NCBI GenBank assembly: GCA_050011195.1
Contig: JBEKJO010000002.1
Location: 3,288 to 67,287, forward strand
Source: Verrucomicrobiota bacterium
GTDB lineage: Bacteria; Verrucomicrobiota; Verrucomicrobiia; Limisphaerales; UBA8199
Direction: 5' to 3'
DNA: 64,000 bases
Shown here: positions 7,331 through 48,164 of the stretch, piece by piece
Layout of the letters: each line of letters begins with the position of its first letter
Position numbering within the stretch: the stretch's first letter is position 1
Notes under the pieces: model-generated
What the model saw: the letters and a program-made list of their open reading frames with translations, nothing else
What the model was told of the DNA's origin: nothing
Database searches by the model: none
Position numbers and translations under genes: made by a program

Positions 7331-8095
<765 letters not shown>

Positions 8096-8111
8096 AGCGG
8101 CCTACCGGGAA

Positions 8112-8248
8112 ATGGAGTGTTGGAGTGATGGAGTATGGGAGTACTGCCAAAAACGTTTGCCTCCGAGCAAGGGGCTCGCGCCACTCCGTCCCGTTACCTC
8201 CTCACTCCATTATTCCATCACCCCATCACTCCACCACTCCATTACCCC
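8112..8248. repeat. Inverted 8-nt-period repeat element (GGAGTGNT arms), family B, intergenic copy
   Basis: Left arm atggagtgttggagtgatggagtatgggagtact (8112-8145). Right arm ctcactccattattccatcaccccatcactccaccactccattacccc (8200-8248) is its imperfect reverse complement. The loop is about 55 nt. Confidence 0.8.
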
Positions 8249-8258
8249 ACTTCCCGCC

Positions 8259-26000: not shown

Positions 26001-27575
26001 TGTGCCTTGGACGGGGCAACCAAACTTCCCAATGGCAACCATGGAATTATGCTCTACAATTCCGCGAGTAATGTCGTGGGCGGCGCCACCGCCCTCGCGC
26101 GGAACGTCGTGGTGGATTCAAAGAATGATGGCATTCACCTTGAGGGAACCGGGGCCTTCGGCAATCAGGTCCTCGGCAACATCATCGGCCTGGACCACAC
26201 CGGGCTGATCCAGGAAGGTGTGTCCGGCAACGGCGTCGTCGTCTCGAACGCCGCGTGGAACCTGGTGGGCGGCACGAATACCGGTGCCGGCAACCTCATC
26301 TCCAGCCACGGCGGCGATGGCCTGGACCTCGCAGGCAGCTTGGCTGGTTTCAACGTGGTTCAGGGCAACTTCATTGGCACCGACATCACCGGCACCAACG
26401 CGGCGAAATGCAATGGCAACGGCATCACTATCCTTAACGCGCCGTCGAACACCATCGGCGGCCTGACCTTCTCTGCCGCCAACGTGATTGCCTACAACAA
26501 CCAGAACGGCATCGCCATTAGCGGCCTCACCGCGGTGTATAACAGCGTCCAGGGCAATTTCATCGGCACGGACCTGACCGGCACGCTTAACTTGAAGAAT
26601 AGTCAGGACGGCGTGATCACGACCACCGCCATCAACAACACCGTCGGCGGTCTGGCGTCGGGTGCCGGCAACACCATTGCCTTCAACAACGCCGGGGGAG
26701 TCGTTGTGAGCGGCGGTCAATGCGCCATTTTGGGCAATTCCCTCTTCTCGAATGCCGGGAATCCCGGGGACATCAGCCTGCTCAACGCGGGCAACCCCAA
26801 CGCCGTGCCTCCCGTGCTAACGGGTGTGACCAACAACACGGGCGTGACCCGGATCCAGGGCGCGTTGACCAATTACCCGGGAGATGCCTACCGGATCGAG
26901 TTCTATGCCAGTCCCAATTCGGCCGATGCCAAGACGTTCTTGGGTGCGACCAACGTCGTCACCAGCAGTAGCGGCTTCGCTCTGTTTAATGTTTGCCTTG
27001 TCACCGGAAATATCACCAATCAATATGTGACCGCGACCGCCACGGATGTCGGCGGCAACACCTCTGAGCTTTCCGTCTCCAAAGCCGTAACGTTCAATCC
27101 TGCTCCTTGGATTGTCAGTAGCCCACAAAGCCAGACGGCGACGCAAGGCCTGAGCGCTGCGTTTTCCGTTGTGGCGAGCGGCGCGGCGCCGCTCGGGTAT
27201 CAGTGGAATTTCAACGGCACGGCTTTGTCCGTCGCCACCGGTTCCACCCTGACGCTGAACAGTGTTCAGACAAATAACGCCGGCAGCTACACGGTGGTGG
27301 TAGCGAACCCCTGGGGTTCGGTGACGAGCGCGGTGGTGATATTGACTGTCATTCCCCCGACTCCCCCGTGCTTCGGTGCGGCAGGGATGACTTCCAGTGG
27401 GTTCGCCTTCCAGTGTGCGGTGCCGGTTGGGTGCACTTACGTCATTATGGCTTCGACCAATCTCCAGGACTGGACCCCCGTTTTCACCAATGTCGCCCAG
27501 ACTGCGAGCGTGGTTATTACCGATCCTGGAGCCACTAACTGCAGCCGGCGGTTCTACCGGGCAATGGCGCAGTGA
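23019..27575 (+). CDS. Giant secreted protein: about 10 Ig-like (I-set type) modules, about 9 parallel beta-helix (PbH1) repeats, and a C-terminal RFYRA domain
   Basis: Signal peptide. Repeated ...Q.Q.V..G....FSV.A.G..P..YQW..NG....G.....L.L..V....AG.Y.VVV.N..G...S..A.LTV modules. Repeats of the NGI.L...S..V.GNFIG type. Ends ...STNLQDWTPVFTN...RRFYRAMAQ. Confidence 0.85.
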   Translation: MRNMTALSCRLRPAALGLLWLSLLLPRPCFATPPPTILVQPLSITVPILGTATFSVSVYSLTTVSYQWLKNGASISGATLSSFTIASAQASDAATYTVQVSNAGGTVTSSGATLTVLLPPTITTQPQDQTVPQGQNPSFSVVATGTMPLSYHWQATNTASGGFTNLTNGGQISGANTNVLIISNVTTNNALFYQVIITNASGAVTSSPAILQVGPSLLLVDVQFLGTSNTTWPSGSGSPQTGAAILGASGDTWNQEDLTYYVYPGTNSDIYASNLVNSANAASGLTLTVGSSPNSVFGGQNPNATATDPATTNLMSSDIQQFALTANVDVWTITVGGLSAYAGEQFNLVVYAGAPSARTQTISVSGGASGGNTSSALTTSSTSRMLSAGAGVAYQIFTNGTLNGSNLVFTVNGGTAAVDSYAAFLNGFQLQIFNYPLITTQPASQTNVAGSTVQFSVGTSGGLLNYQWNFNGTALSGDTNATLALTNVQTTNAGSYTVVVTNSLGSATSAVATLTVLVPPTITTQPQSQGVAQHQNASFSVVAGGSSPFTYQWYFNASAVGGGGQSSTLALNNVDTSSDGSYAVVVANPGGSVTSAVATLTVYVLPGIQTQPQNQTVLQGTNVSFSVVTNANGTPPFSYQWNVNGTNVVNGAYISGATNATLTLSNVQPAQAGNVFVVITNNAGSISSSVATLTVNVPATITNQPQPQAVVAGQTATFSVGAIGTANLKYQWYLNGSSLNGGTSQSSTLALGSVGTNNGGNYTVVVNNNYGTVTSSVVSLTVLATQPFNQTVSVGGNASFSVGVSSPATLGYQWSFDGTTLAGATRSTLTLTNLPTAASGSYAVAVTTPAGILESSTATLTVINGWVGVVTNTSDSGAGSLRQALLNANAYSGPRAIVFNIPGSGPFTISVLSLLPVITNSVIIDATTQPGYSNTNQPVVQVDGKSLPGGTIGDGLTLTASGCTVKGLDISDFPGNGITLSNGSGSVIQGNFIGCALDGATKLPNGNHGIMLYNSASNVVGGATALARNVVVDSKNDGIHLEGTGAFGNQVLGNIIGLDHTGLIQEGVSGNGVVVSNAAWNLVGGTNTGAGNLISSHGGDGLDLAGSLAGFNVVQGNFIGTDITGTNAAKCNGNGITILNAPSNTIGGLTFSAANVIAYNNQNGIAISGLTAVYNSVQGNFIGTDLTGTLNLKNSQDGVITTTAINNTVGGLASGAGNTIAFNNAGGVVVSGGQCAILGNSLFSNAGNPGDISLLNAGNPNAVPPVLTGVTNNTGVTRIQGALTNYPGDAYRIEFYASPNSADAKTFLGATNVVTSSSGFALFNVCLVTGNITNQYVTATATDVGGNTSELSVSKAVTFNPAPWIVSSPQSQTATQGLSAAFSVVASGAAPLGYQWNFNGTALSVATGSTLTLNSVQTNNAGSYTVVVANPWGSVTSAVVILTVIPPTPPCFGAAGMTSSGFAFQCAVPVGCTYVIMASTNLQDWTPVFTNVAQTASVVITDPGATNCSRRFYRAMAQ

Positions 27576-27647
27576 ACTCCTCTTTTCCATCGCGAGGCTG
27601 CGGAATGAATCGGTAGCCTGAGAGCCAAGGCGTTCCCGTCTGGCCGG

Positions 27648-30600
27648 TCACTTCACCGTGAGCGGCAGGCTCTGGCTGTGGCTGTTGAACTCGGGGGCGT
27701 ACATGCACTGGATTTGAGCGACACCGGTCTGGTATTGGCCGCGGAGCTGGACCCGCGTCGAATACTCGAAGACGTAGGCGCCCTTCGGCAGATAATCAAT
27801 GAAGAAATGGCTGGCGGTGTCACGGGTGCTCTCGTAGTAGGCCAGGCCGTCCTGGTATTTGTAGCGCGAGATCACGTTCACCGGCTCGGTGCCGCTGCCG
27901 CGCTGATCTTTCAGATGGACGTATTCCATGTCGCGATCCACGCGCAGTTCGACGCGGACGACCAGTTCGTCGCCGACGCTCAGTGGGCCTTTGACCGGCT
28001 CCAGCACCGGGCCTTTGGCCGTGTTGACCTTGAGGTAAAGCGTCTTGTTCAGCTTCAGCGGGGTGCCTTCATAGGGCGTGACCTTGCTCATGTCTTCGAG
28101 GTATTGCCAGTTGACGCTGCCCCAGGCGACGCCTTGATCCAGTTTCCTGACGGTGATGTCGCCGAGCTTGGGTTTGATGTCGGTGGGGGTGAAGCGATAT
28201 TCGTAAAAGCCGGTGCCGGGTTCGACGGCAGGGGAGGGCGAGGCTCCTGACAAGCCCTTGCCTTTTTCGGCAGTGGATCTATTTGGGCTCGCGGGGACGC
28301 TCACCCTCCCGAGATTTGGGGTGACGTCCACACCATCGAGTTTCACCTGCACGAGGGCTTCGCTTGAGAGAATGTCTTTGCCGCGCAAGAGCAGGGCATA
28401 GACGGCATCGGCGGTGGCCTTGGTGGTCTTCCAATCCTGCGTCTGTTTCTGTTTGAGGAGCCAGACGCGGCAGTCCTCGACCGCCGGCAGGTCGCCCATG
28501 ACTTCATCGAACGCCTCGATCATCAGCGCCTGGGTCTCGATCGGCGCGCGATACCACCACCAGCTTAACTCGGTGTCGCGCCAGAACATGCCCATCTCCT
28601 CGTTCGACACGCTGCGCTCCTTGATGGACTTCATAATGTCGCGGGGGGTGGAATCGTTAACTGAGTTAGATGAGTTAAAGGAGTTAAAAGAGTTAAAGCG
28701 GTGGAGGGCGAGAGCCAAATGGCCCTGGGTCTGCCGGCAATCGGTCTTGAGCCAGAACTTGTGGGCCTGCTTGAGGAAGAACTCAATCGCCGTCTTGTGC
28801 GGCGGCGCGACCGGCTTGTCCTTGAGGAAAAAGCTGCGGCCATACAAATACAGCGCATCCGTCGCGCTGGGCACGTATTTATCCGGCTCGGGCCGCGTCT
28901 GGATTCGCTCATACTCTTCGGTCATCCAGGCATCGAGCCGGTAGAGCGAACGGATGGCGCGGGCGGCGTCAATATCCACCCCAAGATGTCGCAGCCGCCC
29001 GAAGCCGGTGGTGATGTAGAGCGTAATGTAATCGTTGCCCGGGCCGCCGGGGAACCACGGCCAGCGGCCATCGCCCAGTTGCATCTCGGTGAGCTTGCGC
29101 AGCGTGGCCTCGGTCTCGTAGTTGAGGCGGTTATCATCGAACAGGATGCCGATGTTCCGGCGCGCCTGGCTTTCGTTGTCAGCCTGCCGCAGCCAGGGGG
29201 TTTCCTCAATCATCACCGCCTTGAGGTCTTGATTCTTCTGGAGCGGACTCTCCAGCGCGGGCGTGTTCTTCCATTGGTCGAGGATGCGGCGGATTTTGGG
29301 GTCGCTATTGGCGATGGTGCGCGCCAGCGCGTTGGCATAGAGCCGATTGAACGTCTGCTCGCTGCACTCGTAGGGATATTCCATCAGGTAGGGCAACGCC
29401 AGCACCGCATACCACGCCGGGTTGGACACCATTTGCACCACGAGACTCTGGTTTTGGAGCGTCTTGGAGTCCCCCGACTTGAGCAGTTTGGTGAACTCGA
29501 ACTGCTTCGTCGCCGGGCCGCGAATCGGCAGCGGCAGCGATTCGGTGACCAGAATGCGGCTGGAGAGCACCGGCAGATAGCCTTCCTCGCCGTCCGACAC
29601 GTTGGCCGCCGCGCCGACGGCCTTGTAGGTCAGGAAACCGCAGCCGTCCGGCACGTGGATGCGCCAGGCGCAACTGCGCGATTCCTTGGCCGGGATGTCG
29701 AAGTCCTGCTCCGGCTTCGCGTTGCCGAGCAGTTGGTCCGCCGGCTGGCTGTCGAGCGCCTGATTAAAGGTGAGCTGCACGTTGCCGCGCAAGGGCTTGT
29801 CCGTCTGGTTCGACACCTTGACCGTGAACTCGACAGTGTCGCCCTCGCGCAGGAAGCGGGGCGGGTTCGGCTGCACCATCAGGTCTTTGGCGGTGACCGC
29901 GTGGTCTTCGAGGAGGCCGCTGCGCACTGACTGGTCATGCGCGAAACCAAGGAACCGCCACTTCGTCAGCGCCTCCGGCATGGTGAACGTCATCCGTACC
30001 ACGCCGTTGGAATCCGAGGTCAACTGCGGGAAGAAGAAGGCGGTCTCGTTAAGATTCTTGCGGGCGGTGACTTTGCTCAAATCGGGCTTCGGCGGCGCGG
30101 GCTGCTTGGCAGCGCCTCCCGCCACGCTAGGTCCCATCTTATCGAACAAAGCTTCTTCCGGTCCCGTTGCGCGATCCGCGTTCGCCATTTCCAAAAGAAA
30201 GGCCCCTGGCGCCGGCGCCGCCGAAGCCGTAGCTGGCGCGGCGGCGGCCATCGCCATTGGTGCGTTGGCTATCTCATCTTTTGCATCGGCAAGACCGCCA
30301 AAAGTCACCCCAAGGGCGCGCCTTCTGGCGTAGAACTGAAAGCGCCAAAGATTCCGGGTCAGGTCTGGCGGGAAGGAGCGGTAGGTAATCTCCACGCGCT
30401 CGTATGGCCGGCCCCAGCTTCCGAAAACCTGCTGAAACCCCATCGGTGTATTGGCGAACTGCGACTGCACGAGGGAGTCATCCTCGCGAAATATGGGGAA
30501 CCGATGCAGCCAATCCAGCGGCGCGAAGGCATCCAGCGACTCGTCGTAGAGCGTCGCCACCATCTCCGCCGCCAACCGTTCTGGAGTGCTGGAGGGTTGG

Positions 30601-33600
30601 AGTGCTGGAGGGTTGGTTGTTCCATTACTCCATTTCTCCATTACTCCATCACTCCGTTTGCTCACCAGCAGCGTCCACGTCTCTTTCTGATTCGGCTGGA
30701 GCTTGGAAACGAAGTGCTCCCATTTCAGGTCCAGGTCTTTGTTCTTCCACGGCACGCTGATCTTGCGCGATTCCAGGTAGGCACGGTTCTCGCGGACATA
30801 GGTAACGTGCACGAAGAACCCGCCGCGCATCGCCTCGGTCACCGCCAGCTTGATCTGCTGTTGGGTTTGCCCGGCCCGAGTCCAATAGCGCTGGATCATT
30901 TGGTGCCGGTGTTCGATCTCGATGAACGCCCGCCCCTCGTCGTAGCCCGTCCCCCACAGCGCCATAAACTCCTGCCCTGGCTGCAGCTCCCAATCCGGCG
31001 CGGCGATCAGTTGCGGAATCCTGAGGGCCAGCTTCGTGGCCTCGGGTTGCAGCACCTGGACGGGGAGTTTGCCCGTGACTTTCTTGCCAAACCGATCCTG
31101 CGTCTCCAACACCGCCCGATACGCCCCCGCCGCCAGCTTGAACGACAGCTTCGCCACTCCGTTGGTGTCAGTAGTGAACCCCTTTTCCGCGACCACCTTG
31201 CCCAACGGCCAGTTGTTCGGGTTCGACAAGTCCTTGCCGGGTTCGCCCTCATCGGCGTCCCCGCCGCCGAACTCACCGCCGTAACGCCACGGTTGCGGAC
31301 CGGACAGCGGTGGCCGGCGCACTTTTTCCGGCCCTTGCAGGTCATAAATCTTAACGCTGCCCTCGGCTACCTGCGGCTCGCCGTCCAGGGTCTTGGTCTC
31401 CAGCTTCAGCTCGACCGGCTTACCGTCAGTCTGCCAATCATCGGCGCTGATCATGGCTTCGAGGGCGGTGTAGCCGACGCGGATGGCGCGGTCGGCGGAG
31501 CGCGTCTCGCCCGCGCTGTCGGTGACATCGGCGTTGATCTGGAAGACAAACGTCGGCTCGTCTTTCTCCGGCACCTTCGGGTCGGGCCGGGCGGCGAACT
31601 CGATCTGGAACGAGCCGTCGGTCGCGGTTCTGGCTGTGCCGTGGGCGATTTCCTGGCTCTCACCCCGGGGCCTGCCGCCGCGCCACCAACCCCACCACCA
31701 CGGCATCCGCACCTCACGCACGACGCGGTATTTGACCACCGCCCCGTCCACCGCCGCGCCGGTATAGTTCACCGCATGGCCGCTCAGGCTCACCCTCTCG
31801 TTGAGCTTCGCCGCGGCTTTCGGCGCGTCGAGCGTCACCTCGAACTTTGGCCGTTTGTATTCCTCGACCCGGAACTGGGCATCGCCCAGCGCTCGCCCCT
31901 CGACCTGGAGCGACATCTGCCCCATGAGCCGGTCGCGCGGGGCGGTAAAGCTGCCGGCAAACGAACCGTAGTCGTTGGCGCGCTGCTTCTGGCGCGCAAT
32001 CTCCTTGTCGTTCACGTCCTTGAACACCACCGTCAACGGCTCGCCCTTGAGCACCTCGTAGTTGTCCTTGGTCCCGTCCACCCAGAGGCATATCCCCTTG
32101 TATTGGATGGTCTGGCCGGGCCGGTAAATGGCGCGGTCGGTGAAAAAAAAGGTGTGGGTTACCGGGCCGTGGGGTTGCTCGTCCTGCCGGTTGTAGGTCC
32201 AGATATCAGCCGCCGTCGCCAGCTCTTGGCCGTTATGACGCGCCCGGAACAGATAGCTCCTATTCTTCGAGGGCTTGAGGGAGAAAAACCCGTTCTCATC
32301 CATAGTCAGCGTCGGATCGGCAACGCGCTGGCCTTGGTTGTCGAGATGCCAGACGGACACCTCCGCGCCAACGACCGGCTCGCCCGAGTCCGCCTTCAGG
32401 ACAAATCCCTCAATCCTGCCTTCGCGCGTTCGAGTCACCAGCGCCAGGTCGCTCACCCACACGTCCGTCATGGAAACGATGTTGTCCCCCTCGCCGAACT
32501 TTGGGTCGTGGCTGGCGGCGATGAAATAGAAGCCCGGCTTGAGGCTGTCCGGCGCCGGCGTGGCGAAGGTCTTCTCCTTGTAGTCGCTGGTCGGCGGCAG
32601 CTTCGCCGACCATTCCAGCGCGGGTTTGCGGGCCAGGATTTCCCGGCGTTCCTTGTCGTTCAGGTTCTCCGGCCGGTTATGGTGCTTGTCGAGGAAGACT
32701 TCCCAGTCATAGGGAATAGCACGGAAATACACCGCCTCGACGTTGCGGTAGCGAACCGTGATTGCCGGCCAAGGCGCGTTCCAAACCCGCTCGGTGGTGA
32801 TGCTCGCCGACTTGGCCTCAATCTCGGTGACCAGGTTGCGGCAGAGCTTTCCGCCCGGCGATTGCGGGAACAATTCCACACCGCGCAGCGCGAGCTTGCG
32901 CGCCGCGACCAGGTCGCCTTCCTGCTGGACGACCCGCGCCTCGCGCTCGATGGCCAGTGCGGAGATGTCGAAGTCGGCATACGCGCGGATGAACGTCTCC
33001 AGGGCCGCCTGGTAGCGCTTGTTCTTTTCTTCGCCGAAGGCGGTGTTCCAGCCCCACGTCAGCCGCTCCAGGTCGGCGTCGGCAAACGCCAATGACGGAG
33101 CGGGGTCGCTCTGGTGGAACCGGAGCAGGTCCCGGTAGAGCTGGATGGCCTTGAGGACAGGCGAGTCGGTGTCGGCGCCGGCAGCGGGCTGCCAGCCCAT
33201 GAACTTCTCGGCGGAGTCGAGAACCGGGCTGTCGGCGGACAACTCGAAGGCATCCTCCGGTTTGGCCGCCGCCTGCTCGCCGGAGGTGTAGAACTCCAGC
33301 GCCTCGTGGGCGATGAAATCGTATAGGGTGGGCCGGTAACTGTCCGGCATGGTCCCTTTCCGCAGCAGGTCGTTCCAGGCGCTGATGGGCGTGGCCTTGA
33401 GAACCTTCTCCGCCGCGAGCGCCTTCTGGAACTGGCGGTCAATCTCCCGGAAAAGCCGGGGCAGGTCCCACGTCATAAAATCTTTGCCCGGCGGATCGGC
33501 GGTGGCCGTGCGCCGCATGAAGCGCCACCGGTTCTGCTGGAAATACTGCCAATACCATTCGGCCAGCAACGTATCCATCAGCGGCGCCATCTCCTTCGGC

Positions 33601-33890
33601 GCCTTGGCGATCTCCGCCTCCAGGCGCGTGATCTTCTCTTCCGGCTTGTTGCCCTGGATATTGCCTTCCAGCGCGATCTTCTGCCCGATGGCCTTCACCG
33701 CCTCGGCGTAGGCCCGGTCCTTGAGCGCGCCCTGGATAATGGGTTCGAGGTTGGTGATGGCGGTCTTGGGCAGGCCCTTCGCGATGGCCTCCTCGACTTG
33801 TTTCCATTGCGCGTCGCGCGGGCCGGCGAGGGTGGTTGAGGCAAATGTGTTCACAACAACAAAGGCAACGACCAATAGCGTTCGGTTCAT
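27648..33890 (-). CDS. Alpha-2-macroglobulin family protein with thioester motif
   Basis: About 2080 aa from ATG 33890 (MNRTLLVVAFVVV signal). An N-terminal helical region is followed by repeated beta-sandwich (MG-like) regions. YPYECSEQT thioester motif at nt 29355-29366. Confidence 0.88.
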   Translation of the reverse strand: MNRTLLVVAFVVVNTFASTTLAGPRDAQWKQVEEAIAKGLPKTAITNLEPIIQGALKDRAYAEAVKAIGQKIALEGNIQGNKPEEKITRLEAEIAKAPKEMAPLMDTLLAEWYWQYFQQNRWRFMRRTATADPPGKDFMTWDLPRLFREIDRQFQKALAAEKVLKATPISAWNDLLRKGTMPDSYRPTLYDFIAHEALEFYTSGEQAAAKPEDAFELSADSPVLDSAEKFMGWQPAAGADTDSPVLKAIQLYRDLLRFHQSDPAPSLAFADADLERLTWGWNTAFGEEKNKRYQAALETFIRAYADFDISALAIEREARVVQQEGDLVAARKLALRGVELFPQSPGGKLCRNLVTEIEAKSASITTERVWNAPWPAITVRYRNVEAVYFRAIPYDWEVFLDKHHNRPENLNDKERREILARKPALEWSAKLPPTSDYKEKTFATPAPDSLKPGFYFIAASHDPKFGEGDNIVSMTDVWVSDLALVTRTREGRIEGFVLKADSGEPVVGAEVSVWHLDNQGQRVADPTLTMDENGFFSLKPSKNRSYLFRARHNGQELATAADIWTYNRQDEQPHGPVTHTFFFTDRAIYRPGQTIQYKGICLWVDGTKDNYEVLKGEPLTVVFKDVNDKEIARQKQRANDYGSFAGSFTAPRDRLMGQMSLQVEGRALGDAQFRVEEYKRPKFEVTLDAPKAAAKLNERVSLSGHAVNYTGAAVDGAVVKYRVVREVRMPWWWGWWRGGRPRGESQEIAHGTARTATDGSFQIEFAARPDPKVPEKDEPTFVFQINADVTDSAGETRSADRAIRVGYTALEAMISADDWQTDGKPVELKLETKTLDGEPQVAEGSVKIYDLQGPEKVRRPPLSGPQPWRYGGEFGGGDADEGEPGKDLSNPNNWPLGKVVAEKGFTTDTNGVAKLSFKLAAGAYRAVLETQDRFGKKVTGKLPVQVLQPEATKLALRIPQLIAAPDWELQPGQEFMALWGTGYDEGRAFIEIEHRHQMIQRYWTRAGQTQQQIKLAVTEAMRGGFFVHVTYVRENRAYLESRKISVPWKNKDLDLKWEHFVSKLQPNQKETWTLLVSKRSDGVMEKWSNGTTNPPALQPSSTPERLAAEMVATLYDESLDAFAPLDWLHRFPIFREDDSLVQSQFANTPMGFQQVFGSWGRPYERVEITYRSFPPDLTRNLWRFQFYARRRALGVTFGGLADAKDEIANAPMAMAAAAPATASAAPAPGAFLLEMANADRATGPEEALFDKMGPSVAGGAAKQPAPPKPDLSKVTARKNLNETAFFFPQLTSDSNGVVRMTFTMPEALTKWRFLGFAHDQSVRSGLLEDHAVTAKDLMVQPNPPRFLREGDTVEFTVKVSNQTDKPLRGNVQLTFNQALDSQPADQLLGNAKPEQDFDIPAKESRSCAWRIHVPDGCGFLTYKAVGAAANVSDGEEGYLPVLSSRILVTESLPLPIRGPATKQFEFTKLLKSGDSKTLQNQSLVVQMVSNPAWYAVLALPYLMEYPYECSEQTFNRLYANALARTIANSDPKIRRILDQWKNTPALESPLQKNQDLKAVMIEETPWLRQADNESQARRNIGILFDDNRLNYETEATLRKLTEMQLGDGRWPWFPGGPGNDYITLYITTGFGRLRHLGVDIDAARAIRSLYRLDAWMTEEYERIQTRPEPDKYVPSATDALYLYGRSFFLKDKPVAPPHKTAIEFFLKQAHKFWLKTDCRQTQGHLALALHRFNSFNSFNSSNSVNDSTPRDIMKSIKERSVSNEEMGMFWRDTELSWWWYRAPIETQALMIEAFDEVMGDLPAVEDCRVWLLKQKQTQDWKTTKATADAVYALLLRGKDILSSEALVQVKLDGVDVTPNLGRVSVPASPNRSTAEKGKGLSGASPSPAVEPGTGFYEYRFTPTDIKPKLGDITVRKLDQGVAWGSVNWQYLEDMSKVTPYEGTPLKLNKTLYLKVNTAKGPVLEPVKGPLSVGDELVVRVELRVDRDMEYVHLKDQRGSGTEPVNVISRYKYQDGLAYYESTRDTASHFFIDYLPKGAYVFEYSTRVQLRGQYQTGVAQIQCMYAPEFNSHSQSLPLTVK
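28655..28698. repeat. 9-nt-period repeat (GTTAANNGA type), family E, inside the A2M CDS
   Basis: cgttaactgagttagatgagttaaaggagttaaaagagttaaag, translated on the minus strand as FNSFNSFNSSNSVND. Confidence 0.8.
30583..30656. repeat. Family B inverted 8-nt-period element inside the A2M CDS
   Basis: ggagtgctggagggttggagtgctggagggttgg / ccattactccatttctccattactccatcactcc are imperfect inverted arms. Both are translated (…GVMEKWSNGTTNPPALQPSSTPE…). Confidence 0.8.
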
Positions 33891-34177
33891 AGCATGTCCA
33901 GTTTCAAGCAAACTTTCCTTCATTAGACGGCAAGGGATGGTTTGTGCTCCGGGAAAGGCTTTGGCAAGCGAATCCTTATCCCTGCTCATCGGCTCGCAAC
34001 GTAGGCTCCCAGACCAACTGGAACAAGGTGATAATCCGGGTCATGTCGGCTTGGGCAAGCGTGGGCCAGGGTGGCGAAAAGCGGCAAAACTGAGCGGCTT
34101 TTCGGTTGCATCCGCAACCTTTTATCCTATGATGGCGGCCGGCGGTGGGGGAGACGCGCGGGAAAGATGAACTCGGA

Positions 34178-35041
34178 ATGAAGCAGGCACAAAACGAACA
34201 ATCGGAAGCCGGGATGCAGAGGGACGCCCTTGGCCTGGGCCAGAGGTCCGTTTATCTCAATTCCGCCGCCTTGGTTCTCGGTTTTTTCCTGCTCGCTCTC
34301 TCCAGCATCCACGCTACCGATTCGCCGGTCCGGCGGGAATGGACGGTCGATGGCGTCGTCCGCCAGGCATTGGTGTATGCGCCCTCCCAGGCCCGGGGCG
34401 AAGCGGCGCCGGTCGTCTTCGTGTTTCATGGGCGCGGCGGGACGATGCACAATGCCGCCCGCAACTTCGGCTACCACACACTCTGGCCCGAGTCGATCGT
34501 GGTCTATCCGCAGGGCGTTCCCACGCCGGGAGTATTGATCGATCTGGAGGGCAAGATGCCCGGCTGGCAGTACGGCATCGGTGACCACGGCGACCGCGAC
34601 CTGAAGTTTTTCGACGCCATGCTGGCGAGTCTCAAGGAGGATTACGGCGTGGACGAAAAGCGCATTTATGCCACCGGCCTCTCGAATGGCGGCGCGTTCA
34701 CCTATCTGCTCTGGGCAACCCGGGGGGACATCTTCGCGGCCTTCGCCCCGTGCGCCGCGGCCGCGCCGCAGATGGCCCGGCGGTTCAAGCCCAAACCCGT
34801 CCTGCATCTTGCGGGCGAGAAGGATTCACTGGTGAAATTCGAGTGGCAGCAGCAGACGATAGACGTGCTGCGGCGGATCAACCAGTGTGGCGACGGTGAG
34901 CCGTGGGAACCGGGGTGTACGCTCTATCCGTCGAAGATCGGCGCGCCCGTCGTCGCCTTCATCCACCCGGGCGGCCACGAGTTTCCGGCGAAGGCGCCGG
35001 CGATTATTGTGAAGTTCTTCAAGCAGCACGCGAAACCCTGA
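34178..35041 (+). CDS. Secreted alpha/beta-hydrolase esterase (LpqC / PHB-depolymerase-like, CE1-type)
   Basis: VVFVFHGRGG...IYATGLSNGGAFTY (GxSxG nucleophile elbow). Start uncertain: GTG 34145, ATG 34178 or ATG 34214. Confidence 0.72.
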   Translation: MKQAQNEQSEAGMQRDALGLGQRSVYLNSAALVLGFFLLALSSIHATDSPVRREWTVDGVVRQALVYAPSQARGEAAPVVFVFHGRGGTMHNAARNFGYHTLWPESIVVYPQGVPTPGVLIDLEGKMPGWQYGIGDHGDRDLKFFDAMLASLKEDYGVDEKRIYATGLSNGGAFTYLLWATRGDIFAAFAPCAAAAPQMARRFKPKPVLHLAGEKDSLVKFEWQQQTIDVLRRINQCGDGEPWEPGCTLYPSKIGAPVVAFIHPGGHEFPAKAPAIIVKFFKQHAKP

Positions 35042-38245: not shown

Positions 38246-39634
38246 CTATAACCTCCACGGCTCCCGCATCTTGCGGCCCAGCAGGCGAAGGTTGGCTTCT
38301 TCATCGCCCGGGAAGTGTTCTTTCTGCGGGTCCCACACCAGCTTGCGGTTGAGGTGCAAAGCGATCTCGCTCAGATGGCAGAGCGAATCGGATTGGACTG
38401 ACTCGTCTATCGGGCACACGGTTTCCGCGCGGCTCTTGACGCAGTCCAGGAAGTTGCGCGTATGGTCGGCGCTCTTGGTAAGCTGGACCTTGAACGAGTC
38501 TTCGCGCTGGTCAATCAGACTTTCGGGCTGAAGGTTGATCCCGCTGCGATCAACGTGGACCCAGCCCTCAGTGCCTTCGAAGGCAGTGCCGTGATCGGTG
38601 ATCCGGCGGTAGCGCTTCTTCCATTCCTGCTCGTGCTCCCAGAGGTCGCACGACGGCGCTTCCGGATTGGGATGATTGGGCGTGCCCTCGAAGCGCAAGG
38701 TCACGCCGCTGCCGAACTTCATATTTACGTTCCATGCGGTGGCCGTGTCGCAGATGCCTTCGGCATGGAAGGTTCCGCGGCCATCCACTTCGACGGGTCC
38801 GTCGAGCAGCTCGCCGCCGCCCCAGACGGCGATGTCCATCGGATGAATGCCCCAGCCGGCGATGAAGCCGACGGCCAGGTCGCGAATATACCACCACGTC
38901 TTTTTCGCGCCCGGCCCGGCGACCAGGTCCTGCGTGTGCGGCCGGAACGGCGCCGGCCCCAGCCACAGATCGTAATTCAATCCCGGGGGAACCGGAACGA
39001 CTTGAGTTGAGCCGCCCGGCGCGCTGGCCGGCCCCCAGACGTTGATGTGCTGAAGCTTGCCGATGCAGCCGTTGCGGACCAGCTCGCAGGCGAGCCGAAA
39101 GATGCGCGAAGAGCGCTGCTGGGTGCCGAATTGAAAGACCCGTTTGTGGTGATGCACTTCCTTCCGCAAGGTCCAGTCCTCGGTCAAGTTGAGGCCCATT
39201 GGCTTTTCCAGGTAAACGTCCTTGCCCGCCCGCACCGCCGCCAGCGCCGTCAGCACGTGCCAGTGGTCGGGCGTCGCGATGAGGACCGCGTCAATGCCTT
39301 TGCGGGCGACCAGCTCGCGGAAGTCGCCATACGTCGCGCAGTCCTTGTTCTGGTAATGCTGGTTGACGCGGTCGCGCGCCTGTTCGAGGTGGTCTTTCAT
39401 GACATCGCACACGGCGACAACCTGCGCGTCTTTCTGACCGAGGAAGTTGCCCATGTCCCCCTGTCCCTGCGGGCCAACGCCAATGCAGCCGACCGCAATC
39501 CGGTTGCCCGGCGCGACGCTGCCCGACTTGCCCAGGGCGGAAGCGGGAATGATGGAAGGAAAAGCCGCGGCTGAGAGTGCCAGCCCGGTGGTCTGCTTCA
39601 GGAATTGCCGTCGTGTGGAGCAACTGTCGTTCAT
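38246..39634 (-). CDS. Gfo/Idh/MocA family oxidoreductase with twin-arginine signal
   Basis: STRRQFLK Tat motif. IAVGCIGVGPQG Rossmann motif. EKP motif (VYLEKPM). Confidence 0.9.
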   Translation of the reverse strand: MNDSCSTRRQFLKQTTGLALSAAAFPSIIPASALGKSGSVAPGNRIAVGCIGVGPQGQGDMGNFLGQKDAQVVAVCDVMKDHLEQARDRVNQHYQNKDCATYGDFRELVARKGIDAVLIATPDHWHVLTALAAVRAGKDVYLEKPMGLNLTEDWTLRKEVHHHKRVFQFGTQQRSSRIFRLACELVRNGCIGKLQHINVWGPASAPGGSTQVVPVPPGLNYDLWLGPAPFRPHTQDLVAGPGAKKTWWYIRDLAVGFIAGWGIHPMDIAVWGGGELLDGPVEVDGRGTFHAEGICDTATAWNVNMKFGSGVTLRFEGTPNHPNPEAPSCDLWEHEQEWKKRYRRITDHGTAFEGTEGWVHVDRSGINLQPESLIDQREDSFKVQLTKSADHTRNFLDCVKSRAETVCPIDESVQSDSLCHLSEIALHLNRKLVWDPQKEHFPGDEEANLRLLGRKMREPWRL

Positions 39635-39758
39635 ATTGAAATGGTTGGCCTGGTCAGTGTTTCAGAATCGTTCACAGCGGGATCACCCACGCCGCGCCCG
39701 CAGCATGGCACGGGTGGGGAAAGGATGGAAGTGCAAAATAGCTCTCATCCAGGAACCT

Positions 39759-39836
39759 GTAGCCGCCGACGGGAGTCGGCGCACTTTTCCTCAGTCGCAA
39801 AAAACCGGCGCCGCCGTCGTCGGCTACGATTTCTTG
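39759..39836. repeat. GC-rich hairpin element, family A copy 2
   Basis: gtagccgccgacgggagtcggcgc ... ggcgccgccgtcgtcggctac, with a CTCAGTC-containing loop. Same architecture as 2437-2495. Confidence 0.7.
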
Positions 39837-39905
39837 AATCCGCCCCCCCGGGCGCAGGGCGGTTTTTCCTTTCGGCAGCCGGCCCCGCCCTGTTATAAGC
39901 AAGAA

Positions 39906-40664
39906 ATGAAAATACCGCGCATGTTCTTCACGTTCGGCTGCCTGTTGGGTTTGCTCCTCTCGTCGTTGCCCCTGGCGGCCGGTTCACCCAAGGCGTTGCC
40001 CCACAAGATCCGCGTGCTGGTCGTGACGGGCGGACATCCGTTCGAGAAGGAGCCGTTCTTCAAGCTGTTCCAGGATAACCCCGATATTACTTACCAGGCG
40101 GTCGAGCATCCCAACGCGCACGCGCTGCTCAAAGCCGAGGCCGCCAAACAATACGATGTGATCGTGACGTATGACTACAATCAGAAGATCACCGAGGAAG
40201 CGAAGGCGGATTTTGTGGCGCGGCTTAAGGACGGGAAGGGGTTGGTGGTCTTGCACCACGCCATCGCCACGTACCCGACCTGGCCGGAATACTGGAATAT
40301 CATCGGCGCGCACTACTACCTCGCGAAGACCAACATTAACGGCGTGGAAAAGCCGCGCTCAGCGTACAAGCACGGGATGGACTTCCGAATCCACGTCGCG
40401 GATGCGCGGCATCCGGTGACCCGGGGAATGACCGATTTCGACATGCACGACGAGACCTACAAGTGGTTCGACGTGGCCAGGGAATGCCACCCGCTGCTGA
40501 CCACGGATGAGCCTGAAAGCAACCAAGTAATCGCCTGGGCCAAGACTTACAAAGGCGCGCGGGTGGTTTATATCCAGTCCGGCCACGACCATACCGCCTA
40601 CGAGAACCCCAACTACCAGCAATTCCTCCGGCAGGCCATTCGTTGGACCGCGCGCAAAGGTTGA
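39906..40664 (+). CDS. ThuA (trehalose utilisation) domain protein, secreted
   Basis: Signal peptide from ATG 39906. IRVLVVTGGHPFE...GLVVLHHAIA...HDETY, the ThuA pattern. Confidence 0.85.
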   Translation: MKIPRMFFTFGCLLGLLLSSLPLAAGSPKALPHKIRVLVVTGGHPFEKEPFFKLFQDNPDITYQAVEHPNAHALLKAEAAKQYDVIVTYDYNQKITEEAKADFVARLKDGKGLVVLHHAIATYPTWPEYWNIIGAHYYLAKTNINGVEKPRSAYKHGMDFRIHVADARHPVTRGMTDFDMHDETYKWFDVARECHPLLTTDEPESNQVIAWAKTYKGARVVYIQSGHDHTAYENPNYQQFLRQAIRWTARKG

Positions 40665-40685
40665 GAATCGGAGGGGGCGTCACAT

Positions 40686-40792
40686 GAGTTAAATCGGTTA
40701 AATCGGTTAAATAAGGAAGACCCAGTGCGGGCTTGGCCCATTTAACCCATTTAACTCATTTAACTCATTTAACCCATGTAGCCCATTTAACC
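40686..40792. repeat. Family E 9-nt-period inverted element (GAGTTAAAT / CATTTAACC arms), intergenic
   Basis: Left arm gagttaaatcggttaaatcggttaaata (40686-40713). Right arm ccatttaacccatttaactcatttaactcatttaacccatgtagcccatttaacc (40738-40792). Confidence 0.85.
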
Positions 40793-40804
40793 TCCTTGAC
40801 TGTC

Positions 40805-41569
40805 ATGTTTTACAAGGTCATTGCCTGCGAAATCGCCTTTCGCGAACTCTGCTACGCCGCCGCCCGGTCGCGGAACCTCATTGACCTGGAGTTCCTCACG
40901 CAGGGATACCATGACATCCCGGTCACGGGCCGCGCGGAGATTCAGAAGCGCATCGACGCGGTGCCCGCCGGCAGATATGACGCCATCCTGCTCGGCTACG
41001 GCCTGTGCAGCAGCATCCTCGCGGGACTGACCACGGCGCATACGCCGCTGGTCATTCCGCGCGCGCACGATTGCATTACCTTCTTTCTCGGGTCGAAGGA
41101 GCGCTACCGGGAATGTTTTGATGCGAAGCCCGGCACGTATTACTACACGTCAGGCTGGCTCGAGTGCGCCAAACGTCGTGGCAGCACGGGACCCATCTGG
41201 GGCGGCGCCTCCCTGCCCGCCGGCGCCAACGCGAGCCTCAAAGCGACCTACGAGCAGTGGGTGCGGAAATACGGTGAGGACCAAGCCAAGTATCTGCTGG
41301 AAGAGATGAGCCGGTGGACCGACTCCTACTCGCACGGGACACTCATCACCTTCGACTTTGTCAAACATCTCAAGCTGCAGGAGCAGGTGCGGCAGATCTG
41401 CGCGGAGCGCGGCTGGCAATACGACGAGATTCAAGGCGATCTGGGCTTGTTCCACAAACTGCTCGACGGCGAGTGGCCGGAGCCTGATTTCCTCGTCGTG
41501 CGCCCCGGACAAAAGGTCTTTGCCACGAATGACGAGCAAGTGATTGGGGTCCAGCCGGCCGGAACCTGA
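40805..41569 (+). CDS. DUF1638 domain protein
   Basis: YDAILLGYGLCS...VIPRAHDCITFFLGS pattern. Start at ATG 40805, downstream of the repeat. Confidence 0.72.
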   Translation: MFYKVIACEIAFRELCYAAARSRNLIDLEFLTQGYHDIPVTGRAEIQKRIDAVPAGRYDAILLGYGLCSSILAGLTTAHTPLVIPRAHDCITFFLGSKERYRECFDAKPGTYYYTSGWLECAKRRGSTGPIWGGASLPAGANASLKATYEQWVRKYGEDQAKYLLEEMSRWTDSYSHGTLITFDFVKHLKLQEQVRQICAERGWQYDEIQGDLGLFHKLLDGEWPEPDFLVVRPGQKVFATNDEQVIGVQPAGT

Positions 41570-43806: not shown

Positions 43807-43885
43807 AAGCTGTGCGCAGTTGACTGTGCGGCGGCATTTTGCAACGCTCCTGCCGCCTTGCACAACAACGAAAAGCCTTAAAGCC

Positions 43886-44728
43886 GTGGACATCAAGAAA
43901 GCCATCATCACCGCCGCTGGCAAAACTCAGCGGACACTTCCTTTGCAAACCCTGGTGGACCGGGACGGCGTCACCAAGACGGCGCTGCGGATTCTCATCG
44001 AGGAAATCCTGTCAGCCGGCATCGAGGAAATCTGCGTGGTCGTCTGCCCGGGAGACCAGGCCGCTTACGCCGCCGCCGCCGGCGGGCAGGGCGGGCGGCT
44101 TCGGTTCGTCGAACAGAGCGCCGCCCTCGGCTACGGGCACGCGGTTGCTTGCGCGCGTGAATTCGCGGGCGGCGGTCCTTTCCTGCTGCTGGTCGGCGAC
44201 CATCTTTACGTCAGCGGCCGCAAGCGCGCCGCGCAACAACTGGTCGAGATCGCCGGGGCGGAGAATTGCGCCGTCTCCGCGGTGCAAGCGACGCACGAGA
44301 GCAAGCTGCCTTACTACGGGACGATTGGCGGGCGTCTCGCCGCCGGGCGCAAAGGTTTGTATGAGATCTCGGAAGTGCTCGAGAAGCCCACTCCCACCGA
44401 GGCCGAGCAAAGGCTCATCGTCCCCGGGCTGCGGGCCGGCCACTACCTTTGTTTCTTCGGCATGCACGTGCTGACGCCGGCGGTCATGGAGCTGCTCGAA
44501 GGGGAGGTCGCGCGGGCGGGCAAGGGGGGCGCGCATCTGACGACCGCCCTGGCCCGGCTCGCCAAACGCGAACGGTACCTGGCCTGCGAGCTGGAGGCGC
44601 ATCGCTACGACATCGGCGTCAAGTACGGATTCCTCACGGCCCAACTGGCCCTGGCGCTCGACGGCCAGGACCGCGACGAAGTGCTGAACGGCCTGGTGGA
44701 ACTGTTGGCGCGGCGGGGAGTCAAATGA
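43886..44728 (+). CDS. Sugar-phosphate nucleotidyltransferase (GalU-like)
   Basis: [19 protein letters not shown]-terminal nucleotide-binding loop, [18 protein letters not shown] start at 43886. Confidence 0.72.
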
Positions 44729-44743
44729 GGGGAGCCGGTGAAA

Positions 44744-44793
44744 CCGTTAAATGGGTTAAATGAGTTAAAGGGGTTACAGGGGTTAAATGGGTT
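44744..44793. repeat. Family E 9-nt-period repeat, single arm, intergenic
   Basis: ccgttaaatgggttaaatgagttaaaggggttacaggggttaaatgggtt read directly. Confidence 0.8.
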
Positions 44794-44813
44794 ATTCTGA
44801 CATTCCACATGCT

Positions 44814-48164
<3,351 letters not shown>

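What the first reader, a model, noticed from the sequence alone, without database searches (positions are those of the whole stretch)
28655..30656. Intergenic-type repeat elements inserted in-frame inside the alpha-2-macroglobulin CDS
Two elements that elsewhere occupy intergenic spacers are found inside this 6.2-kb ORF without breaking it. One is a family E 9-nt-period array at 28655-28698, translated FNSFNSFNSSNSVND. The other is a complete family B inverted pair at 30583-30656, translated …VMEKWSNGTTNPPALQPSSTPE…. The second would form an RNA hairpin of about 34 bp in the middle of the mRNA. Repeat invasion of coding sequence that is tolerated, or selected, as a surface loop is uncommon in bacteria. 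It could affect translation pausing, mRNA stability or antigenic variation.
Basis: seen in the sequence. Interest (0 to 1): 0.6.

Follow-up and report, generated by a model that had tools for sequence, protein, structure and literature searches.

The report
Repeat-built loops inside a macroglobulin gene
Short DNA repeats that litter this soil bacterium's genome also sit, in frame, inside a giant protease-trap gene, where they are translated as floppy surface loops; this turns out to be common in this genome rather than special to the gene.

Summary
Both repeats are real, at the stated coordinates, inside an intact 2080-aa thioester alpha-2-macroglobulin gene (window 27648-33890, minus strand) of a Limisphaerales MAG.

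Element B (8-nt units, inverted pair) is a true lineage-specific in-frame insertion. Distant orthologues have an 11-aa turn there; the window has 33 aa. In an AlphaFold model it is a disordered loop between two strands.

Element E (9-nt units) is not a fresh insertion. Fifty-six of 64 orthologues already have a 15-aa loop here, many of them reading FNSFNS-ND. The window only added two units (+18 nt), in an inter-helix loop of the thioester domain.

The mRNA hairpin has 24 interrupted base pairs, not about 34, and its arms change length independently in orthologues.

New here:
- A third in-frame element lies at 28231-28310, a REP-like palindrome with 95 loci in the genome.
- Site B is a hotspot. 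Orthologues carry octamer arrays, heptamer arrays or unrelated palindromes, and lengths change in 3-unit steps.
- Nearest relatives carry different cassettes.
- At least 9-27% of strong arrays genome-wide lie in coding sequence, including carB.

Four strain-level sequences show no copy-number variation. The scan had already noted coding heptamer tracts elsewhere in this genome. Best reading: tolerated passenger repeats in permissive loops.

The parts
27648..33890 (-). Thioester alpha-2-macroglobulin CDS, 2080 aa counted from M34 (the open frame extends up to 33989)
   Evidence: ORF list and translation. Pfam finds MG2, A2M_BRD, A2M and bMG10. The AF2 model of aa 914-2113 matches Salmonella A2M 4U48 at E 2.8e-34.
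30621..30656 (-). Element B, 5' arm in the mRNA: CGGAGTGAT GGAGTAAT GGAGAAAT GGAGTAAT GGA (GGAGT-type 8-nt units), encoding RSDGVMEKWSNG
   Evidence: TRF period 8, 4.4 copies. Intergenic copies C33 and C199 match at 95-97% including the AAAC/AAC start and, in C199, the GGAAC end.
30583..30616 (-). Element B, 3' arm in the mRNA: CCAACCCTCCAGCACTCC x2 (ACTCC-type 8-nt units, here a perfect 16-nt doublet), encoding TNPPALQPSSTP
   Evidence: TRF period 16, 100% match. Orthologues have AACACTCC units at this place.
30573..30668 (-). Whole variable segment at site B (aa 1108-1139), the part that differs between the 'octamer' and 'heptamer' alleles of orthologues
   Evidence: Mutual information between residue and allele type is confined to aa 1108-1139. 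The model shows pLDDT below 50 for aa 1115-1136, between strands aa 1103-1111 and 1142-1149.
28655..28698 (-). Element E: five 9-nt units TTTAACTCN on the coding strand, encoding FNSFNSFNSSNSVN. Two of the units (18 nt, about 28674-28691) are new in this lineage.
   Evidence: TRF. Sister P0003 has three units. The window's loop is 21 aa against 15 aa in 56 of 64 orthologues. The array is 32% GC against 63% for the gene. In the model it is the end of a helix plus the loop to the next helix of the thioester domain, pLDDT 76-80.
28231..28310 (-). Third in-frame element, not in the finding: a REP-like palindrome with a canonical arm at 28285-28310 and a degenerate arm at 28231-28257. The insert relative to distant orthologues is aa 1895-1917, RVSVPASPNRSTAEKGKGLSGAS.
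   Evidence: The insertion is absent from distant orthologues, and the 69-nt insert (28239-28307) folds at -26.2 kcal/mol. The arm GGGAGGGCGAGCGTCCCCGCGAGCCC has 95 loci in the genome, 45 of them inverted pairs of 70 or 80 nt. Model pLDDT is below 50.
30099..30449 (-). Predicted bait region and disordered stretch (aa 1181-1297), lying before the conserved RKNLNETAFFFP
   Evidence: pLDDT is below 50 over most of model residues 268-384. The region is hypervariable in both alignments. Calling it the bait is inferred from A2M architecture.
29355..29366 (-). Thioester motif CSEQ (aa 1542-1545)
   Evidence: Read from the translation. C, E and Q are invariant in the 64 orthologues.
8107..8247 (.). 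Intergenic family B inverted pair, used for comparison
   Evidence: the repeat finder I4. It lies between ORFs 7331-8095 and 8112-9206 and is not in CDS by the flank test.
40679..40800 (.). Intergenic family E inverted pair, used for comparison
   Evidence: the repeat finder I5 and D9. It lies between ORFs 39447-40664 and 40733-41569.
44728..44801 (.). Intergenic family E single arm, used for comparison
   Evidence: the repeat finder D7 gives 70-80% identity to the A2M array. It lies between ORFs 43778-44728 and 44787-48164.

Best explanation
The two elements, and a third found here, are coding-region copies of this genome's dispersed repeats: tandem arrays with 7-9-nt units and REP-like palindromes. 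They are most likely tolerated passengers, not functional devices.

Shown: the repeat families are abundant genome-wide. The copies in the gene lie in loops, either disordered or between helices. They are lineage-specific relative to distant orthologues.

Inferred: arrays arise or are copied into many sites. They then grow and shrink by slipped-strand mispairing and become more uniform by local conversion. In coding DNA only changes that keep the frame survive, and only in loops that can take extra residues. For an 8-nt unit that means steps of 3 units (24 nt), for a 7-nt unit 21 nt, and for a 9-nt unit any whole number of units.

Element B is such an insertion in a strand-connecting loop of the macroglobulin domain just before the bait region. 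Element E is a recent two-unit slippage expansion of an old 9-nt array in a helix-connecting loop of the thioester domain. The peptides they encode are by-products of the DNA repeat read in all three frames.
For: The genome holds about 1000 short-period arrays (621 of period 7, 113 of period 8, 183 of period 9).

Coding occupancy: by a stringent test of coding potential in both flanks, 111 of 414 strong heptamer arrays, 9 of 63 octamer arrays and 7 of 78 nonamer arrays are inside CDS. Random positions pass this test only 46% of the time. Hosts include carB, where the array splits the pre-ATP-grasp domain, a ROK kinase, and five TPR membrane-protein paralogues that carry the array at the same loop.

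Site B in orthologues: distant orthologues have a short turn, ITGPD. The window's site B, site E and the REP-like insert are the only lineage-specific insertions of 7 aa or more in the C-terminal 1200 aa.

Quantised lengths: 18 of 22 octamer alleles are 34 aa plus or minus multiples of 8 aa, and 19 of 23 heptamer alleles are 17 or 24 aa. At the DNA level P0020 is -24 nt and P0004 is +48 nt.

Other lineages carry unrelated in-frame palindromes at site B: L031 at -61 kcal/mol and L035 at -72.7 kcal/mol for the whole inserts.

Site E: the sister has three units and the window five.

Structure: B has pLDDT below 50 between two strands, and E is at a helix end plus loop.

Same-cluster relatives (at least 90% identical) that differ elsewhere in the protein have identical arrays. 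An earlier follow-up in this scan saw frame-preserving steps at another locus.
Against: Neutral passengers should decay, yet octamer alleles of lineages only 72-75% identical gene-wide keep 78-82% identity in the segment. The TPR paralogues keep near-perfect arrays at one homologous loop. This hints at ongoing homogenisation or selection at the DNA level.

The same site is hit repeatedly, and closest relatives carry different cassettes (21-24 state changes on 64 tips). Simple slippage does not explain that.

No transcript, protein or population read data could be examined.
Confidence: 0.68

Rival explanations
1. Cassette-diversified loops. The variable loops of this protease trap are kept diverse by selection. 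Alternative repeat-derived cassettes are exchanged between lineages by short-tract homologous recombination, or persist as very old polymorphisms. The repeats would then be raw material for functional variation, for example extra protease-sensitive or decoy loops.
For: Three loops each show several alternative cassettes in nearly free combination, with 21, 24 and 16 state changes on a 64-tip tree. Sister pairs differ in cassette: window versus P0003 at 88.8% DNA identity, P0010 versus P0033 at 91%, and P0005 versus P0013 at 88%. Octamer alleles share the same architecture and junctions in all lineages. No donor carrying the right-hand junction exists elsewhere in this genome. Blocks of 0-2% divergence next to blocks above 10% in some pairs suggest recombination within the gene.
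Against: Flanks within 90 nt of the segment show ordinary divergence of 7-12%. No allele-linked synonymous sites occur in 120 nt on either side. Recombination tracts would therefore have to end almost exactly at the segment in three independent pairs. No functional data exist. The tree is FastTree on metagenome-derived proteins.
Confidence: 0.17
2. Mobile palindromic element. Element B is a discrete miniature mobile element, like the Rickettsia palindromic elements, that transposed into the gene in frame.
For: It belongs to a dispersed family with 24 inverted pairs in the genome. Many copies begin AAAC-GGAGT and end ACTCC-GTTT. The A2M 5' arm matches intergenic copies at 95-97% including the ends. 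Abundance among relatives is patchy, from 119 hits in this genome to 2 in a genome of the same genus and 0 in many others.
Against: Unit number, loop length (about 5 to 150 nt) and arm symmetry vary freely between copies. The only flanking direct repeat at the A2M copy is a 5-nt AACGG that overlaps the first unit, and I did not count it as a target-site duplication; its significance was not tested. The canonical GTTT end is missing on one side of that copy. Octamer alleles also differ from heptamer alleles in the adjoining non-repeat codons (ERL versus EKA), which is replacement rather than insertion. Element E arose in place.
Confidence: 0.1
3. Regulatory RNA or switch. The hairpin and its four GGAG (Shine-Dalgarno-like) motifs pause ribosomes or set mRNA stability. 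Alternatively, slippage by single 8-nt units switches the gene on and off (phase variation).
For: The mRNA strand folds at -39.6 kcal/mol, z = -4.1. The 8-nt unit is not a multiple of 3, so single-unit slippage would shift the frame.
Against: The arms change independently in orthologues: P0020 lost 3 units of one arm and P0004 gained 6 units of the other, so pairing is not conserved. Many orthologues have a heptamer array with no inverted partner at this site. Four same-cluster sequences are identical at both arrays. None of the orthologue loci recovered here (about 45) is frameshifted at site B. Arrays of only 4 units slip rarely, which rests on established knowledge of simple sequence repeats. 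Rfam gives only a chance-level hit.
Confidence: 0.05

Closest known systems
Rickettsia palindromic elements (RPEs), dispersed palindromic repeats inserted in frame in protein-coding genes
   Same: Both are multi-copy, hairpin-forming elements found in intergenic DNA and also in frame inside unrelated conserved genes, at positions compatible with the protein fold (PMC10969869, read). Here this applies to B, the REP-like element, and the palindromes in L031 and L035.
   Different: RPEs are discrete elements of about 150 bp with a conserved encoded peptide. Element B is built from a variable number of 8-nt units, with no fixed length and no target-site duplication that I accepted. The host here is a free-living Verrucomicrobiota bacterium with a 6.5-Mb genome, not a reduced intracellular genome.
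Dispersed heptamer repeats of cyanobacteria (STRR), Xanthomonas/Nostoc (GGGAATC type) and Beggiatoaceae (TAACTGA)
   Same: The same short unit recurs at tens to hundreds of loci, typically about 4 units long and mostly intergenic, with a minority inside genes (7-11% intragenic in Xanthomonas; PMC4692102; PMC4679880).
   Different: This genome has dozens of different units with periods of 7, 8 and 9 nt, often as inverted pairs. A much larger share lies in coding DNA. Orthologue comparison shows in-frame 3-unit steps.
Tandem repeats of Borg elements that create intrinsically disordered regions in proteins
   Same: In both cases tandem repeats that are absent from homologues add disordered segments to proteins (PMC9879509, abstract seen).
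   Different: Here, units of 7 and 8 nt are read in all three frames in turn, so the peptide period is 7 or 8 residues. Only element E (9 nt) fits the Borg pattern.
Heptanucleotide VNTR in the 5' coding region of E. coli K1 neuO
   Same: A repeat unit that is not a multiple of 3 lies inside a coding sequence, and only copy numbers that keep the frame give full-length protein.
   Different: neuO is a fast on/off switch with many units. The arrays here have 4-5 units, are stable among strains, and show no off alleles.

Membership tests
Bacterial thioester alpha-2-macroglobulin (ECAM / Salmonella A2M type) | Chain of macroglobulin (MG) domains with a C-terminal MG10/receptor-binding-like domain | tested here: met
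   Pfam MG2 at 8e-21, A2M at 2e-20, A2M_BRD at 6e-8 and bMG10 at 3e-30. Foldseek gives 4U48, 5A42 and 4ZIQ as top hits, E about 1e-34 to 1e-31.
Bacterial thioester alpha-2-macroglobulin (ECAM / Salmonella A2M type) | CxEQ thioester motif in an alpha-helical thioester domain | tested here: met
   CSEQ at aa 1542, with C, E and Q invariant in 64 orthologues. The model shows a helical domain around it.
Bacterial thioester alpha-2-macroglobulin (ECAM / Salmonella A2M type) | Exposed, protease-sensitive bait region before MG7 | tested here: inconclusive
   A hypervariable stretch, aa 1181-1297, has pLDDT below 50 over most of its length and precedes the conserved RKNLNETAFFFP. Cleavage was not tested.
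Bacterial thioester alpha-2-macroglobulin (ECAM / Salmonella A2M type) | Lipoprotein signal peptide with a lipobox cysteine | tested here: not met
   The N-terminus MNRTLLVVAFVVVNTFASTTLAGP is signal-peptide-like but has no cysteine (read directly).
In-frame palindromic mobile elements (RPE / MITE-like) | Multi-copy dispersed family with hairpin potential | tested here: met
   Family B has 122 regex loci (roughly a third are G/C-rich chance matches) with 24 inverted pairs. The A2M copy folds at z = -4.1. Element E in the gene has no partner arm.
In-frame palindromic mobile elements (RPE / MITE-like) | Present in frame in the gene and absent from orthologues | tested here: met
   B is 99 nt against 33 nt in distant orthologues. 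E shows only +18 nt against the sister.
In-frame palindromic mobile elements (RPE / MITE-like) | Discrete element of fixed length with defined terminal repeats and a target-site duplication | tested here: not met
   Unit number and loop length vary between copies. The AAAC...GTTT ends are common but are present on one side only in the A2M copy. The only flanking direct repeat is a 5-nt AACGG overlapping the first unit, which I did not accept as a target-site duplication.
Phase-variable simple sequence repeat (contingency locus) | Repeat unit not divisible by 3 inside the coding sequence | tested here: met
   B has 8-nt units. E has 9-nt units and cannot shift the frame.
Phase-variable simple sequence repeat (contingency locus) | Copy number varies between closely related strains, including out-of-frame alleles | tested here: not met
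   Both full-length cluster members (P0122, P0124) and two partial members (P0123, P0126, which cover site E only) carry arrays identical to the window. None of the orthologue loci recovered (about 45) is frameshifted at B. Read-level data were unavailable.
Dispersed short tandem repeats of STRR / heptamer type | The same short unit at many loci, a few units per locus, mainly between genes | tested here: met
   Tens of loci exist per unit, for example ACGCATC 45, AAATCCG 43, ACTCCATC 28 and AAATGAGTT 20. Only a minority of arrays were called inside CDS by the flank test, which has about half sensitivity.
Borg-type tandem repeats creating disordered regions | Unit length divisible by 3 when inside an ORF | tested here: not met
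   B and the heptamer alleles have 8- and 7-nt units. E (9 nt) does meet the feature.

The most novel reading that the evidence does not exclude
In this clade the macroglobulin gene carries at least three loops that work like cassette sites. Each loop holds one of several alternative peptides built from the genome's own repeat families: octamer hairpin arrays, two kinds of heptamer arrays, and two kinds of palindrome. The cassettes are reshuffled between lineages almost independently of the backbone. This would need either selection for loop diversity in a protease trap with very short recombination tracts, or a targeted process that writes repeats into pre-existing repeat sites. Such a process has not been described for bacteria.
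Probability: 0.2. Interest if true: 0.75.

Novelty: new variant of a known kind. Interest (0 to 1): 0.55.

Why it matters
In-frame invasion of genes by dispersed repeats is textbook only for Rickettsia palindromic elements. Here a free-living soil or freshwater verrucomicrobial lineage shows it on a larger scale, with repeats whose 7- and 8-nt units are not codon multiples.

Orthologue comparison makes the selective filter visible: lengths change in 3-unit steps, and the repeats sit only in loops.

This has three practical uses:
- It gives a natural system for asking how new disordered loops are born in conserved proteins.
- It shows how much insertion essential enzymes such as CarB can tolerate.
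- It raises the question of what process spreads identical short units to hundreds of sites.

It is also a warning for annotation. Odd peptides such as SDGVMEKWSNG, PPLHHSTTP, KSKVQSP and GRASVPASP in these genomes are repeat read-through, not motifs.

Tried and rejected
- **Solved structures by sequence.** The match was too distant (E 1e-10, N-terminal part only) to place the loops, so I used an AF2 model of aa 914-2113 built with 72 orthologue fragments.
- **Rfam on 27000-34500.** The only hit was chance-level, mir-H1 at 31 bits against a gathering score of 97. It was rejected.
- **Target-site duplication at B.** The only candidate is a 5-nt AACGG on both sides that overlaps the first unit, and I did not treat it as meaningful.
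- **Imported recombination tracts.** There are no allele-linked synonymous sites in 120-nt flanks. Mutual information is confined to aa 1108-1139. Divergence is ordinary in the first 90 nt on each side. Recombination is therefore neither shown nor excluded.
- **A master copy or donor for B.** The best hits cover one arm only, and none has the right-hand junction.
- **Link between genome-wide family B abundance and the octamer allele in relatives.** Too few genomes were informative. G004 has 73 hits but a heptamer allele, and G023 has 51 hits but no array at the site.
- **Possible false call.** One of the CDS calls from the flank test (C164) looks like an antisense ORF, so the coding fractions are rough.

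Full report
**The gene.** Window 27648-33989 (minus strand) is one open frame of 2113 codons. Public gene calls start at M34, giving 2080 aa. Pfam finds MG2, A2M_BRD, A2M and bMG10, and a CSEQ thioester motif sits at aa 1542. Close homologues are named alpha-2-macroglobulin family proteins of Limisphaerales or Verrucomicrobiota MAGs. The genome held for the window is a 6.47-Mb, 309-contig assembly with 61% GC.

Tandem Repeats Finder reports a 9-nt array at 28656-28697 and 8-nt arrays at 30581-30616 and 30621-30655. Related copies in the window sit in spacers between co-directional ORFs: 8107-8247, 40679-40800 and 44728-44801. The family B pattern occurs 119 times in the genome, against 0 for a reversed control. 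The hairpin is weaker than stated. It has 24 bp in helices of 3 to 6 bp, most of them separated by 3x3 internal loops, at -39.6 kcal/mol and z = -4.1 on the mRNA strand. Element E alone has no fold. Rfam gives nothing credible.

**Site B is a true insertion and a hotspot.**
- I compared 64 close orthologues, 30 loci from related genomes, 80 loci from across Verrucomicrobiota, Planctomycetota, Bacteroidota and other phyla, and 8 metagenome contigs.
- Distant orthologues have a tight turn, ETWTAVITGPD...AEMVA, with 33 nt between anchors. The window has 99 nt.
- Within the family the site holds one of three states. The first is an 'octamer' allele homologous to the window's (22 of 64). The second is a 'heptamer' allele made of (R)AAGTCY units, read as KSKVQSP or EVRSPKS (23 of 64). 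The third is other short sequences.
- Two further lineages carry unrelated in-frame palindromes at the same place, folding at -61 and -73 kcal/mol for the whole inserts.
- Lengths are quantised. Octamer alleles are 34 aa plus or minus multiples of 8 aa in 18 of 22 cases. Heptamer alleles are 17 or 24 aa in 19 of 23 cases. At the DNA level one orthologue lost three units of one arm (-24 nt) and another gained six units of the other arm (+48 nt).
- This is what slippage filtered for reading frame predicts. It also shows that the hairpin's pairing is not conserved.

**Site E is mostly old.** In 56 of 64 orthologues the loop is 15 aa, and many read RFN-FNS-ND-TP. In several lineages it is a three-unit TTYAACKCN array at the DNA level. 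The window's sister has TTTAACTCC TTTAACTCA GTTAAC, and the window has two more units (+18 nt). Only far outside the family is the loop shorter (RFGDKETP).

**Structure.** An AlphaFold2 model of aa 914-2113 was built on 72 orthologue fragments (mean pLDDT 80). Its best PDB matches are Salmonella and E. coli alpha-2-macroglobulins (E about 1e-34).
- Site B is a stretch with pLDDT below 50 (aa 1115-1136) between two strands.
- Site E is the end of one helix and the loop to the next in the thioester domain (pLDDT 76-80).
- The presumed bait region is a separate stretch, aa 1181-1297, that is disordered over most of its length.

**A third element.** Against distant orthologues, the C-terminal 1200 aa have only three lineage-specific insertions of 7 aa or more: B, E and aa 1895-1917. 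The last belongs to a REP-like palindrome at window 28231-28310. Its arm, GGGAGGGCGAGCGTCCCCGCGAGCCC, occurs at 95 loci in the genome, 45 of them inverted pairs of 70 or 80 nt.

**Genome-wide context.**
- The genome has about 1000 arrays of period 6-10 nt with dozens of different units.
- I trained a codon log-odds score on long ORFs. I called an array 'inside CDS' only if one open frame ran through it with coding signal in 70 codons on both sides.
- Random positions pass this test 46% of the time. Strong heptamer arrays pass 27% of the time, octamer arrays 14% and nonamer arrays 9%; some of the nonamer calls are ordinary GC-rich codon repeats. These are rough lower bounds, and one call (C164) looks spurious.
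- Hosts include carB, where the array splits the pre-ATP-grasp domain, a ROK kinase, and five TPR membrane-protein paralogues that all carry PPLHHSTTPP at the same loop.
- Earlier notes of this scan had already recorded coding heptamer tracts in this genome. One follow-up found frame-preserving steps at another gene.
- Family B abundance is patchy among relatives: 119, 73, 147 and 51 hits in four genomes, 2 in a genome of the same genus, and none in many others.

**What remains odd.**
- On a tree built without the variable columns, site B changes state 21-24 times among 64 tips. Two other loops do the same (24 and 16 changes), and cassettes occur in nearly free combination.
- The window's nearest relative (88.8% DNA identity) has the heptamer allele. 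Two other close pairs (91% and 88%) also differ.
- Octamer alleles share junctions and architecture everywhere. Their divergence is similar to or somewhat lower than that of the gene: 78-96% segment identity against 72-92% gene-wide.
- Flanks show no allele-linked synonymous sites and ordinary divergence right up to the segment. No donor with the right-hand junction exists elsewhere in this genome.
- Short-tract recombination, very old polymorphism and site-specific re-insertion are all left open.

**Verdict.**
- The functional ideas gained no support. Antigenic or phase variation is disfavoured by identical arrays in four strain-level sequences. Selection for the hairpin is disfavoured by independent changes in the two arms.
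- The closest known analogues are Rickettsia palindromic elements (PMC10969869), dispersed heptamer repeats of Xanthomonas and cyanobacteria (PMC4692102) and Borg tandem repeats (PMC9879509). None combines non-triplet units, inverted arrays and alternative cassettes at one site.

Noticed in passing
window 28231-28310 (-): A third dispersed element lies in frame in the same gene. It is a REP-like palindrome whose arm, GGGAGGGCGAGCGTCCCCGCGAGCCC, has 95 loci in the genome, mostly inverted pairs of 70 or 80 nt. The insert relative to distant orthologues encodes RVSVPASPNRSTAEKGKGLSGAS in a low-confidence loop.
   Followed up: partly
window about 28200-28330 and 31250-31350 (aa about 1890-1925 and 895-915), compared in alignment A1: Two further loops of the protein show alternative repeat-derived cassettes among orthologues. 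One loop has RNPKSET-type heptamers, NRQSP-type heptamers, the REP-like palindrome or an AADVRRL palindrome. The other has WRYGGEFGGG versus SYTSDESD types. The cassettes combine almost freely with the state at site B.
   Followed up: partly
G000 contig C43:16977-17075 (outside the window): Octamer and heptamer arrays add about 45 residues (VNPSPVTRHQSPVTSPPSLHHSITPSLRHSIPPSPVP) inside the pre-ATP-grasp domain of carbamoyl-phosphate synthase large subunit, a highly conserved enzyme.
   Followed up: partly
G000 contigs C4:31179, C41:21090, C55:29556, C99:2227, C17:1489 (outside the window): Five paralogous membrane proteins with C-terminal TPR repeats all carry an ACCACTCC-type octamer array at the same loop (DYWPL.RL.FPPLHHSTTPPLRLL), although the paralogues look clearly diverged elsewhere. 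Several also carry ACGCATC heptamers (ASRITHQ) in another loop. Either the arrays are kept uniform or the site is hit repeatedly.
   Followed up: no
family B loci genome-wide, e.g. window 8107-8247 and 30583-30656: Many copies start AAAC-GGAGT and end ACTCC-GTTT. The unit GGAGTGAT is one base short of the full Shine-Dalgarno complement GGAGGTGAT, and its partner ATCACTCC is one base short of the 16S rRNA 3' tail. Whether this matters for translation is untested.
   Followed up: no
L031:site B and L035:site B (orthologues from other Verrucomicrobiota MAGs): Unrelated near-perfect palindromes are inserted in frame at exactly the same loop as element B. The L031 site-B insert is 114 nt and folds at -61 kcal/mol. 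The L035 insert is 165 nt, combines a palindrome with heptamers, and folds at -73 kcal/mol.
   Followed up: partly
L024 (G003, same genus), site E: This orthologue has an extra C at site E, and the protein match breaks at two further points in the same gene. This could be assembly error in a 79%-complete MAG or a decaying gene; I could not tell which.
   Followed up: no
relatives G000-G060: The load of GGAGT-type octamer arrays differs about 60-fold within one genus (119 hits against 2). It is high in scattered genera of the family and order, as if repeat proliferation switches on and off in lineages.
   Followed up: no
window 33791-33890 (N-terminus of the protein): The signal peptide has no lipobox cysteine, unlike the lipoprotein alpha-2-macroglobulins of E. 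coli and Salmonella.
   Followed up: no
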